From a virus (Duplodnaviria > Heunggongvirae > Uroviricota > Caudoviricetes), in IMG/VR virus record IMGVR_UViG_2547132274_000015, positions 1 to 7,950 of that record: a stretch of 7,950 nt of DNA; one strand, written 5' to 3'. The stretch's first letter is position 1. Each line of letters opens with the position of its first letter. This document shows positions 2,934 to 3,315 of this stretch, piece by piece. The translations under genes were made by a program, and so were the position numbers. The notes below the pieces were generated by a model, which worked only from the letters and a program-made list of their open reading frames with translations, was not told where the DNA came from and did not search any database.

Positions 2934-3054
2934 TTCATTGCTCCAGACGAATGATATGATGCAACCATGATGTGATTGCATACCGAAATGGTACTATTGA
3001 GTATTTATCCAGTAAGTTACGATGCCATTCCACCCAATTGGTGAGGCATCAAGG
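2934..3054. promoter_or_regulatory. Divergent intergenic control region between the tailspike and mnt: expected site of Pmnt, any residual Pant-like promoter and the Mnt operator.
   Basis: This 121-bp gap lies between divergent start codons (2933 on minus, 3055 on plus). It contains three symmetric elements: an imperfect 23-bp palindrome at 2959-2981, TACC-N5-GGTA at 2981-2993, and a perfect 8-bp palindrome CCAATTGG at 3034-3041. In P22 the equivalent mnt-proximal region holds Omnt overlapping Pant. I could not find convincing sigma-70 -35/-10 pairs by eye. The best -10-like hexamers are TATCAT (2956..2951, minus) and TACGAT (3018-3023, plus), and both have poor -35 partners. Confidence 0.4.
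2959..2981. promoter_or_regulatory. Imperfect 23-bp palindrome; candidate repressor (Mnt) operator or leader-RNA hairpin upstream of the tailspike.
   Basis: ATGCAACCA (2959-2967) - TGATG - TGATTGCAT (2973-2981): 9-nt arms with 8/9 complementary. On the minus-strand RNA the single mismatch becomes a G-U wobble (AUGCAAUCA-CAUCA-UGGUUGCAU), so a 9-bp stem with a 5-nt loop can form 26-48 nt upstream of the tailspike ATG. It is AT-rich and has no following U-tract, so it is unlikely to be a strong terminator. Confidence 0.35.
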
Positions 3055-3315
3055 ATGTACAGCAAATACGACGAGGCGCAGTTTCACTTGAGACTTCCGC
3101 ATGAACTCCACGCGAAAATTAAGCAGCGTGCGAAGATGAATAACAGGTCTCTGAACTCAGAGATAATTGCAGCGATTGAAGAATCACTGGATAAACAAAA
3201 CTCTGCATCAGTTTACATTGACGATGCAGAGCGTATGGCAGAACAACAATCCGATATGGTTAAGAAAATTGTCTTTGATACGCTCAAAGAGCTATATAAA
3301 AAAGACAGCAGCTAA
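3055..3315 (+). CDS. mnt: Mnt-family ribbon-helix-helix transcriptional repressor (phage P22 immI maintenance repressor homologue).
   Basis: The track ORF is 3022..3315. I place the start at ATG 3055 (MYSKYDEAQFHLRLP...), preceded by GAGG (3043-3046) with an 8-nt spacer, giving 86 aa. It aligns end to end with P22 Mnt as I recall it (..DPHFNFRMPMEVREKLKFRAEANGRSMNSELLQIVQDALSK...NDAERLADEQSELVKKMVFDTLKDLYKK..). Here the sequence is ..EAQFHLRLPHELHAKIKQRAKMNNRSLNSEIIAAIEESLDK...DDAERMAEQQSDMVKKIVFDTLKELYKK... The RHH core (beta-strand, NxRSxNSE helix turn) and the C-terminal tetramerisation helix are both present. The gene is oriented opposite to the late operon, as in P22. Confidence 0.9.
   Translation: MYSKYDEAQFHLRLPHELHAKIKQRAKMNNRSLNSEIIAAIEESLDKQNSASVYIDDAERMAEQQSDMVKKIVFDTLKELYKKDSS

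What the first reader, a model, noticed from the sequence alone, without database searches (positions are those of the whole stretch)
2934..3315. Orphan mnt: the immI region is reduced to the repressor alone, butted directly against the tailspike gene
In P22, Mnt exists to shut off Pant, which drives arc and ant (antirepressor); gene 9 lies downstream of ant. Here a well-conserved mnt (3055-3315) is separated from the tailspike start (2933) by only 121 bp, with no room for arc or ant. The repressor has therefore been retained after its canonical target genes were lost, which argues that it still has a job. There are two non-exclusive ideas. First, a residual Pant-type promoter now feeds straight into the tailspike gene, so Mnt keeps tailspike silent in the lysogen. 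A free O-antigen-cleaving or O-antigen-binding tailspike would be costly there and would counteract the conversion gene. Second, the orphan Mnt acts in trans to silence the antirepressor of incoming related phages, protecting the prophage from anti-immunity induction.
Basis: partly seen in the sequence, partly recalled or inferred. Interest (0 to 1): 0.55.

Follow-up and report, generated by a model that had tools for sequence, protein, structure and literature searches.

The report
Stand-alone mnt repressor cassette beside tailspike
A phage repressor gene (mnt) sits alone next to the tailspike gene with its own promoter and binding site and is kept by selection, but this layout is already common and published in P22-like phages, and the sequence gives no sign that it controls the tailspike.

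Summary
An intact mnt (3055-3315, +) lies 121 bp from the tailspike start (2933, -), with no arc or ant. It is not unusual. The window is an Sf101/IME10-like P22-type prophage. The same layout occurs in at least 158 of 5,426 complete E. coli genomes. It was published as an mnt-only "ant moron" for phages L, ST64T and ST104.

In about 255 loci, Mnt falls into three DNA-recognition classes, each with its own palindromic operator:
- HFNFR (P22), always next to arc.
- QFNLR (L, SE1, ST160), always next to the tailspike.
- QFHLR (this window), next to the tailspike or an inserted homing-endonuclease gene.

The window's operator is ATACC-N5-GGTAC (2980-2994), 2 nt from the -35 of the conserved mnt promoter, as in P22. 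mnt is under purifying selection (dN/dS 0.11; 170 of 171 copies intact), so it is not a scar.

No Pant-like promoter points at the tailspike. No ant-bearing phage with this operator class was found. The 2959-2981 palindrome is a tailspike-leader RNA hairpin, not an operator. The best reading is an autonomous, self-regulated cassette whose output is still unknown.

A conserved 25-codon membrane-peptide ORF (3336-3413) follows mnt. Its BTP1 homologue lies inside the published exclusion RNA STnc6030.

The parts
1221..2933 (-). Tailspike gene (570 aa), true start at 2933
   Evidence: Pfam Head_binding 2.1e-64 over residues 1-113. The N-terminus is 96% identical to the Sf101 tail protein. The whole oacB-tailspike stretch is 92% identical to Sf101 at the DNA level.
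2941..2944 (-). Shine-Dalgarno (GGAG) of the tailspike gene
   Evidence: Read directly from the sequence: GGAGCAATGAAATG on the minus strand.
2959..2981 (-). Leader hairpin of the tailspike/late mRNA (9-bp stem, 5-nt loop). This is the palindrome ATGCAACCA-n5-TGATTGCAT.
   Evidence: Found as an inverted repeat. As minus-strand RNA it folds at -9.4 kcal/mol, z = -3.5. In 63 of 64 loci all 9 pairs are standard on the minus strand (G-U allowed), against 7-9 on the plus strand, and variants change G-U to A-U or G-C. It is absent from the 135-bp class, which has the same Mnt, so it is not the operator.
2980..2994 (.). Predicted Mnt operator ATACCGAAATGGTAC (half-sites RTACC / GGTAY, 5-bp spacer)
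   Evidence: It has the same position and geometry as the annotated P22 O_mnt: the palindrome is followed by TA and then the -35 TTGAG. 169 of 171 QFHLR loci have exactly one such site 74-81 nt upstream of the ATG, with conserved half-sites and a variable spacer. The half-site differs with the reading-strand residues across three classes. It is the only perfect site in the window and in the Sf101 genome.
2997..3023 (+). mnt promoter by homology: -35 TTGAGT (2997-3002), 15-bp spacer, -10 TACGAT (3018-3023)
   Evidence: It is positionally homologous to the annotated P22 Pmnt (TTGAGA-17-TATCAT). TTG and TTACGATGCC are invariant across 66 distinct upstream sequences. The PWM score here is only 7.9 bits because of the short spacer.
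3043..3046 (+). Shine-Dalgarno (GAGG) of mnt, 8 nt before the ATG
   Evidence: Read from the sequence. GAGGCAT is conserved in all relatives.
3055..3315 (+). mnt, 86-aa ribbon-helix-helix repressor with a C-terminal tetramerisation helix, recognition strand Q-F-H-L-R
   Evidence: Pfam and PDB matches. dN/dS is 0.11. 97-100% identical copies occur in IME10, Sf101 and 80 IMG/VR loci.
3336..3413 (+). Conserved small ORF, 25 aa, MQRDMLNIAFYIFGFCTFLVFAKLF. It is predicted to be a single-pass membrane peptide, has a GGAGG Shine-Dalgarno, lies 20 nt after the mnt stop and overlaps the stop of the gene 16 homologue.
   Evidence: Intact in 102 of 103 loci, with variable columns by codon position 13/7/16. 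The family is present in 134 of 484 loci, including Sf6, L and BTP1, whose DNA is very different but whose peptide pattern is kept.
3405..5402 (-). Gene 16-type DNA ejection protein gene (665 aa), convergent with mnt
   Evidence: Synteny gp14-gp7-gp20-gp16. 99% identical C-terminus in Sf6 and IME10. PGAP names it a P22-gp16 family protein in E. coli genomes.

Best explanation
The segment is a complete, autonomous mnt cassette of a distinct DNA-recognition class. It is not the decaying stump of an immI region.

Anatomy:
- A single 15-bp palindromic operator (2980-2994) abuts the -35 element of the conserved mnt promoter (2997-3023).
- A ribosome-binding site and mnt (3055-3315) follow.

Proposed mechanism:
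- The Mnt tetramer binds this one operator and so regulates its own promoter.
- The transcript is made in the lysogen and runs antisense to the late operon.
- In this lineage it probably continues into a conserved 25-codon membrane-peptide ORF (3336-3413) that overlaps the end of gene 16.
- The tailspike is not driven from this region. It is reached by late-operon read-through, and its mRNA carries its own conserved leader hairpin (2959-2981).

Shown here: gene, domains, operator position and class-specific sequence, purifying selection, prevalence, and the lack of a recognisable leftward promoter. Inferred: binding, the sign of autoregulation, transcript extent and lysogenic expression.

The selected output of the Mnt protein itself is unresolved. 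My leaning is a role in phage-phage conflict rather than in tailspike control.
For: Domains and structures.

Operator:
- Same geometry as the annotated P22 O_mnt/Pmnt.
- One site per locus at a fixed offset in 169 of 171 loci, with conserved half-sites and a variable spacer.
- Three classes in which the reading residues and the half-site differ together: HFNFR with GGTCC, QFNLR with AGACC, QFHLR with ATACC.

The conserved upstream blocks are exactly the half-sites, the -35 TTG, the -10 TACGATGCC and the Shine-Dalgarno.

Selection: dN/dS 0.11; pN 0.07-0.10 where pS is 0.6-0.95 across Escherichia, Klebsiella, Rahnella, Serratia and Buttiauxella; 170 of 171 copies intact.

Autonomy:
- About 160 QFHLR and 69 QFNLR loci are next to the tailspike without arc or ant.
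- The cassette coexists with a complete second immI in L130.
- It joins three unrelated tailspike leaders of 121, 135 and 146 bp.

No leftward promoter.

Small ORF directly downstream with a strong Shine-Dalgarno in about 80 loci. In other relatives, secreted or lipoprotein genes or a Rap1a-like gene sit in the same place.
Against: - The homology-inferred promoter has a 15-bp spacer here and scores at background (7.9 bits).
- A different plus-strand site (CTGACA-17-AATGAT, 2927-2955, 9.8 bits) could be the real promoter.
- There are no expression or binding data for this class.
- Self-regulation alone does not explain purifying selection on the protein.
- In phage L, and in 148 of about 240 orphan loci, nothing follows mnt on its strand, and L has a terminator right after the stop. 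Driving cargo therefore cannot be the general reason for retention.
- The small ORF family is tied to the end of gene 16, not to mnt. It occurs in Sf6 and BTP1, which have no mnt.
Confidence: 0.55

Rival explanations
1. Trans-immunity. The prophage keeps Mnt so that it can silence the antirepressor promoter of incoming P22-like phages that carry the same operator class. This would protect the lysogen from anti-immunity induction.
For: - It gives the protein a selectable output even where mnt is monocistronic.
- Mnt-operator pairs have diversified into discrete specificity classes, as immunity determinants do.
- One QFHLR locus (L152) has a truncated P22-type ant next to the cassette, so this class has been joined to ant at least once.
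- In P22, prophage Mnt does act in trans on superinfecting genomes (established knowledge, not tested here).
Against: - No cognate target was found. 0 of about 171 QFHLR loci have arc-ant under this operator.
- 80 ant-bearing loci use GGTCC-type or other operators.
- In a truncated exact-operator scan of IMG/VR, every P22-like match was the mnt-tailspike module itself.
- The reading residues differ from P22 Mnt, so P22-type Pant should escape.
- Phage L, which carries an orphan mnt, is reported to lack functional immI (PMC8022706).
Confidence: 0.2
2. Tailspike silencing. Mnt bound at 2980-2994 either represses a weak leftward promoter, or blocks read-through polymerase just upstream of the tailspike leader. 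Either way no tailspike is made in the lysogen.
For: - The operator always lies between the rest of the moron and the tailspike leader, 47-75 bp before the tailspike ATG, in three unrelated junction types.
- In P22, Pant transcripts are thought to affect tailspike level (PMC2629481, citing Berget et al. 1983).
- A weak candidate, CTTACT-17-TACCAT, would place its -10 inside the operator.
Against: - That candidate scores 7.6 bits against a null of 8.2 +/- 2.1 and is not conserved in the 135-bp class.
- The P22 Pant hexamer positions are not conserved.
- In 16 loci, an opposite-strand HNH gene of 0.5 kb separates the operator from the tailspike.
- Adjacency is explained by module recombination at shared boundary sequences.
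Confidence: 0.12
3. Neutral remnant. mnt is a leftover of an arc-ant deletion, still intact only because the deletion is recent.
For: - The phage L paper left this possibility open (PMC8022706).
- A few frameshifted or truncated copies exist: P0109, P0105, L098, one QFHLR locus and two QFNLR loci.
Against: - dN/dS is 0.11.
- The DNA-binding domain is conserved across genera at saturated synonymous divergence.
- About 98% of copies are intact.
- The operator half-sites are conserved while the spacer drifts.
Confidence: 0.04

Closest known systems
mnt-only 'ant moron' of Salmonella phages L, ST64T and ST104 (Villafane 2008, PMC2629481; Zaworski 2021, PMC8022706)
   Same: It lies between the gene 16 and gene 9 homologues and has mnt without arc, ant or sieA. 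mnt is divergent from the tailspike, 135 bp away in L. A palindromic operator sits 2 nt from the mnt -35. The authors left its function open: 'another function or a remnant'.
   Different: L's Mnt belongs to the QFNLR class, with operator AGACC-N5-GGTCT. L also has orf62 and a terminator right after mnt. The window has the QFHLR class, a 121-bp Sf6-type tailspike leader, and nothing but the small ORF between mnt and gene 16.
Phage P22 immI region (mnt, arc, ant, sar, Pant/Pmnt)
   Same: The Mnt is homologous (47.5% identity, both domains). The operator-Pmnt geometry and the position in the late operon are identical.
   Different: There is no arc, ant, sar or Pant. The base-reading residues differ (Q-H-R against H-N-R), and so does the operator half-site (ATACC against GGTCC). 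The cassette is therefore not expected to cross-react with P22.
Shigella phage Sf101 gp14 and the unannotated equivalent in coliphage IME10
   Same: The DNA is 96-97% identical across 2800-3323/3500, and the layout oacB-tailspike-mnt-gene 16 is the same. These are effectively the same element.
   Different: Sf101 has a different gene 16-type protein downstream. The gene is labelled 'partition protein ATPase' in RefSeq and is not discussed in the Sf101 paper: the terms 'mnt' and 'repressor' do not occur in it.
STnc6030 of Salmonella prophage BTP1 (Owen 2020, PMC7067206)
   Same: It is a lysogen-expressed transcript on the strand opposite the late operon, spanning the tailspike 5' end to the gene 16 3' end. 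That is the same place and orientation as mnt plus the small ORF here. The BTP1 transcript contains a homologue of the small ORF.
   Different: BTP1 has no mnt, only a 155-bp gap. STnc6030 was described as non-coding, and its promoter lies inside the tailspike gene.

Membership tests
Mnt repressor family (ribbon-helix-helix, Arc/MetJ superfamily) | N-terminal ribbon-helix-helix DNA-binding domain | tested here: met
   Pfam Arc PF03869 at 2.3e-14, residues 7-48. PDB 1MNT at 1.3e-18.
Mnt repressor family (ribbon-helix-helix, Arc/MetJ superfamily) | C-terminal helix that makes the dimer-of-dimers tetramer | tested here: met
   Pfam Repressor_Mnt PF11423 at 3.4e-14, residues 57-82. PDB 1QEY at 1.6e-8. 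The oligomeric state itself was not tested.
Mnt repressor family (ribbon-helix-helix, Arc/MetJ superfamily) | Symmetric two-half-site operator next to its own promoter | tested here: met
   ATACC-N5-GGTAC at 2980-2994, 2 nt from the -35, as in annotated P22. It is class-specific and fixed in position in 169 of 171 loci. Binding is inferred, not measured.
Mnt repressor family (ribbon-helix-helix, Arc/MetJ superfamily) | Sequence-specific binding of the purified protein to that operator | not testable with these tools
   Needs EMSA or footprinting.
P22-type immunity I (immI) region | Antirepressor gene ant, with arc, transcribed divergently from mnt | tested here: not met
   There is no ORF in the 121-bp gap and no tblastn match to Arc or Ant in the window.
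P22-type immunity I (immI) region | Strong Pant promoter whose start region is covered by the Mnt operator | tested here: not met
   The best leftward PWM score is 7.6 bits against 17.4 for P22 Pant, with a null of 8.2 +/- 2.1. The homologous positions are variable. A weak promoter cannot be excluded by sequence alone.
P22-type immunity I (immI) region | sar antisense RNA | tested here: not met
   The arc-ant junction that encodes sar in P22 is absent. No Rfam match in 2600-3700.
mnt-only ant moron (L/ST64T/ST104 type) | Lies between the gene 16 and tailspike homologues, and mnt is the only immI gene | tested here: met
   L compared directly.
mnt-only ant moron (L/ST64T/ST104 type) | Same Mnt specificity class and accessory gene (orf62) | tested here: not met
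   The window is QFHLR with ATACC and L is QFNLR with AGACC. There is no orf62 homologue in the window.

The most novel reading that the evidence does not exclude
The rightward, lysogen-expressed unit at this position (here mnt plus the 25-codon ORF) is a superinfection-exclusion module. On this reading, the conserved 23-25-residue membrane peptide encoded against the end of gene 16 is a minimal SieA-like blocker of the gp16/gp20 DNA-delivery conduit. Mnt supplies it with a self-regulated promoter in this lineage. The exclusion published for the 'non-coding' RNA STnc6030 of BTP1 would then be due to this peptide. The escape mutations for STnc6030 are amino-acid changes at the gp16 C-terminus. 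P22's SieA escape mutations likewise map to the C-terminal region of gp16 (and of gp20).
Probability: 0.15. Interest if true: 0.6.

Novelty: new member of a known kind. Interest (0 to 1): 0.33.

Why it matters
The published question about orphan mnt genes was whether they are remnants or have another function. Here they come out as a selected, self-contained module that makes up two whole specificity classes of Mnt. In the loci sampled here, most of which were fetched with orphan-type Mnt queries, the classical P22 mnt-arc-ant layout is the minority. The three residue-and-half-site pairings (H-N-R with GGTCC, Q-N-R with AGACC, Q-H-R with ATACC) give a small natural recognition code for a textbook beta-sheet DNA reader, and it can be tested. 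The output of orphan Mnt remains unknown. A knockout in an Sf101, IME10 or L lysogen would settle whether it serves phage-phage conflict, tailspike control or neither. For this window the practical result is that the feature is ordinary and already in the databases.

Tried and rejected
- **Palindrome 2959-2981 as the Mnt operator.** Rejected. It is missing from the 135-bp class, which has the same Mnt. Its variants keep pairing only on the minus-strand RNA.
- **A second operator elsewhere in the phage.** The Sf101 genome has one perfect site and one 1-mismatch site, against 3.9 expected by chance. There are no extra perfect sites within +/-3 kb in 171 loci beyond chance.
- **An operator upstream of ant in other phages.** None was found in 80 ant loci. 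The one ATACC-N5-GGTAA hit (L312) lies inside an arc-like coding sequence.
- **Exact-operator scan of IMG/VR.**
  - 42 of the 80 listed loci are unrelated contexts at about chance frequency.
  - Six of those come from an unrelated phage (GC 0.53) that carries the 15-mer twice in a repeated promoter-like element, with no Mnt-like gene in the fetched DNA.
- **Species-representative genomes.** These gave only 4 loci.
- **A query with a Rahnella-type Mnt.** This added no further QFHLR loci.
- **Rfam.** No match in 2600-3700.
- **The small ORF as a SieA C-terminal remnant.** Rejected, because there is no similarity to P22 SieA.
- **The start codon at 3022.** Rejected on promoter geometry.
- **Literature.**
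  - Berggrun and Sauer 2001 is not held.
  - The claims about Mnt contact residues, and about Mnt's positive effect on Pmnt in P22, rest on my own knowledge of Sauer-lab papers from 1983-2001.
- **STnc6030 escape SNPs.** I could not map the published D23580 coordinates onto the BTP1 record.

Full report
**What the window is**

On the minus strand the window carries the end of a P22-type late operon: gp14 (7495-7950), gp7 (6800-7492), gp20 (5402-6790), a gene 16-type ejection protein (3405-5402) and the tailspike (1221-2933). An Acyl_transf_3 O-antigen acetylase gene (1-1167) is on the plus strand. At the DNA level the window is 92-96% identical to Shigella phage Sf101 from oacB through mnt. 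It is about 96% identical to coliphage IME10 over 2800-3500.

**Checking the observation**

The ORF at 3055-3315 (+) is an Mnt homologue with both domains. Pfam gives Arc 2.3e-14 and Repressor_Mnt 3.4e-14. PDB gives 1MNT 1.3e-18 and 1QEY 1.6e-8. Identity to P22 Mnt is 47.5%. The tailspike starts at 2933 and the gap is 121 bp. Neither arc nor ant is present.

**How common the layout is**

- The stretch 2900-3420 matches 418 of 5,426 complete E. coli genomes. In 158 of them the match covers at least 80% of the stretch. It is annotated throughout as an Arc-family protein next to a tailspike or head-binding protein.
- In IMG/VR, 227 stretches encode a close relative. Of the 80 fetched, 64 have exactly the 121-bp gap.
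[quoted passage not shown] ST64T, ST104 and Para1 keep only mnt plus one unknown gene (PMC2629481).
- I checked L directly. Its mnt is 135 bp from gene 9.

**Three recognition classes**

I pooled about 255 Mnt-bearing loci from phage records, IMG/VR, genomes and assemblies. They sort by the DNA-reading beta-strand.

| Class | Examples | Neighbour on the divergent side | Operator half-sites |
|---|---|---|---|
| HFNFR | P22 | arc, 16 of 16 | GGTCC-N5-GGACC (the annotated P22 O_mnt) |
| QFNLR | L, SE1, ST160, Gally | tailspike, 69 of 69 | AGACC-N5-GGTCT |
| QFHLR | this window, Sf101, IME10, VSe13, JEP4; also Klebsiella, Rahnella, Serratia, Buttiauxella | tailspike at 121 or 135 bp in 145 of 171; see below for the rest | RTACC-N5-GGTAY |

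For the QFHLR class, the other 26 loci break down as follows: 16 have an HNH homing-endonuclease gene inserted into the first tailspike codons, 5 have the tailspike at a different spacing (140-410 bp), one has a truncated ant, and four lie at contig ends. A few loci were fetched twice, so there are about 160 distinct QFHLR loci.

Each class has its own palindrome at the same offset from the ATG. In the QFHLR class, 169 of 171 loci have exactly one such site. The half-sites are conserved and the spacer varies. In the window the site is 2980-2994. It is followed by TA and then TTGAGT, the same "TATTGAG" junction to the mnt -35 as in P22.

**Promoters**

- A sigma-70 PWM built from remembered consensus frequencies recovers P22 Pant (17.4 bits) and Pmnt (15.0 bits) far above shuffles.
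- In the orphan classes the Pmnt homologue is found at the conserved place. It scores 11.9 bits in Gally, 10.4 in ST160 and 9.8 in the 135-bp QFHLR class. In the window it scores 7.9 bits, because the spacer there is 15 bp.
- Toward the tailspike, every class scores 5.7-7.6 bits, at or below the null mean, and no candidate is conserved in position.
- Across 66 distinct upstream sequences, the invariant blocks are the half-sites, the -35 TTG, TTACGATGCC (the -10) and GAGGCAT (the Shine-Dalgarno). The stretch where the P22 Pant -10 would lie is variable.
- I conclude that a Pant-type promoter has not been retained. Sequence alone cannot exclude a weak one.

**The other palindrome**

ATGCAACCA-n5-TGATTGCAT (2959-2981) is specific to the 121-bp, Sf6-like tailspike leader. 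It is absent from the 135-bp, P22-like leader that serves the same Mnt. As minus-strand RNA it forms a 9-bp stem (z = -3.5). In 63 of 64 loci all nine pairs are standard on that strand, because the plus-strand C-A mismatches are G-U wobbles there. Variants convert G-U to A-U or G-C. By eye, the P22-type, Sf6 and BTP1 leaders have analogous hairpins made of different sequence. I therefore read it as a tailspike-mRNA leader structure.

**Selection**

- Among 44 nucleotide alleles of the window type, pooled pairwise dN/dS is 0.11. It is 0.08 in the DNA-binding domain.
- Against relatives from other genera, the DNA-binding domain has pN 0.07-0.10 where pS is 0.6-0.95.
- 170 of 171 QFHLR copies and 67 of 69 QFNLR copies are full length. 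A few frameshifted clusters exist.
- The gene is maintained by selection in the orphan state.

**Testing the two proposed jobs**

Idea 1 fails on the promoter evidence above. The 16 loci in which a 0.5-kb opposite-strand HNH gene separates the operator from the tailspike also argue against it.

For idea 2 I looked for a target and found none.
- The Sf101 genome has no second operator.
- None of 80 P22-type ant loci uses this operator class.
- In a truncated exact-operator scan of IMG/VR, every P22-like match was the mnt-tailspike module itself. The remaining matches were unrelated contexts at about chance frequency.
- L152 has the 3' third of ant joined to the cassette at a shared boundary sequence, so this class has been joined to ant at least once.
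- L130 carries a complete second immI (a different Mnt-like gene, arc and ant) as well as the tailspike-adjacent QFHLR mnt. The latter therefore acts independently of a cis-linked ant.

**What follows mnt**

- In about 80 loci, including the window, a 25-codon ORF with a GGAGG Shine-Dalgarno starts 20 nt after the mnt stop and overlaps the stop of gene 16.
- In other relatives, signal-peptide or lipoprotein genes or a Rap1a-like gene occupy that place.
- In phage L and in 148 loci, nothing follows on the same strand.
- Driving cargo is therefore plausible here but cannot be the general reason for keeping Mnt.

**The small ORF**

The family (M-x-R-D-x-L-N-x-x-F-x-I-F-G...) is intact in 102 of 103 close copies. 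It occurs in 134 of 484 loci held, including Sf6, L and BTP1. Their DNA is very different but the peptide is kept. In BTP1 it lies inside STnc6030. STnc6030 is a lysogen-expressed RNA reported as non-coding that gives complete exclusion of BTP1. Its escape SNPs are non-synonymous changes at the 3' end of the gene 16 homologue (PMC7067206). P22 SieA sits at the same genomic position, and its escape mutations are in the C-terminal regions of gp16 and gp20 (PMC10883804). This suggests that the peptide may be the effector, but it does not show it.

**Verdict**

The arrangement is common, is nearly identical to published phages, and has been described in the literature. The best-supported description is a self-regulated, mobile mnt cassette of a distinct specificity class. 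Its trans or local output remains to be found.

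Noticed in passing
window 3336-3413 (+); BTP1 LT714109 14082-14011; phage L locus L340 1833-1904: A conserved 23-25-codon hydrophobic ORF with a strong Shine-Dalgarno overlaps the stop of the gene 16 homologue on the opposite strand, at the position sieA has in P22. 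It is unannotated in Sf6, IME10, L and BTP1. The BTP1 copy lies inside STnc6030, published as a non-coding exclusion RNA whose escape mutations change the gp16 C-terminus.
   Followed up: partly
L008, L009, L055 and 13 other loci, between the mnt control region and the tailspike: At least three types of HNH (HNH_3/AP2) homing-endonuclease gene are inserted on the mnt strand into the first codons of the tailspike. The insertion leaves a duplicated MSDIT stub next to the mnt region. AT-rich inserts of about 280-300 bp in other loci (gaps of 410-430 bp) carry the same duplicated stub.
   Followed up: partly
window 2959-2981 (-); P22 L085 about 1080-1100; Sf6 L003 about 3155-3185: Each of the unrelated tailspike leader types has a stem-loop about 15-45 nt upstream of the tailspike Shine-Dalgarno on the late-mRNA strand. 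It is not followed by a U-run, and its function is unknown (processing, stability or attenuation are possibilities).
   Followed up: partly
L130 3000-6000: One prophage carries a complete immI-like unit between gene 16 and the tailspike-adjacent QFHLR mnt. The unit has two ribbon-helix-helix genes divergent from an arc-like gene, a P22-type ant and a 270-aa protein. Several VSe13/JEP4-type loci have arc-like, Rha or KilA genes in the same place, convergent with mnt.
   Followed up: partly
P22 L085 1085-1240; L152 744-765; L013 and other 135-bp-class loci: A short repeated 'boundary sequence' (GC(A/G)TGGCTACGG) marks the left edge of the mnt module. It occurs twice upstream of P22 gene 9. It probably mediates the module shuffling that places mnt next to the tailspike.
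   Followed up: no
L093 4258-4620; L090 4261-4581; other loci: In relatives from other genera, mnt is followed on the same strand by a Rap1a-like (type VI immunity) gene that overlaps the mnt stop, or by genes with signal-peptide or lipoprotein starts. These look like prophage-expressed envelope cargo.
   Followed up: no
Sf101 NC_027398 14284-14577; many RefSeq phage records: RefSeq labels mnt as 'partition protein ATPase' in Sf101, ST64T, SE1, epsilon34 and others, and IME10 leaves it unannotated. Sf101 also uses the upstream ATG, giving a 97-aa product.
   Followed up: no
L369, L374, L385, L397, L408, L436: Contigs of an unrelated phage (GC 0.53) carry the same 15-mer, ATACCGAAACGGTAC. Five of the six fetched stretches hold it twice, 515 bp apart; the sixth (L385) holds one copy. 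Each copy is in a repeated element placed after TATATAC and about 20 nt before a start codon, like a promoter-operator. No Mnt-like gene was seen in the fetched DNA.
   Followed up: partly
window 2927-2955 (+): The best plus-strand promoter-like site of the region (CTGACA-17-AATGAT, 9.8 bits) overlaps the tailspike start codon. It would place the Mnt operator at about +18 to +32 of its transcript, which is an alternative geometry for negative autoregulation. The score is near background.
   Followed up: partly
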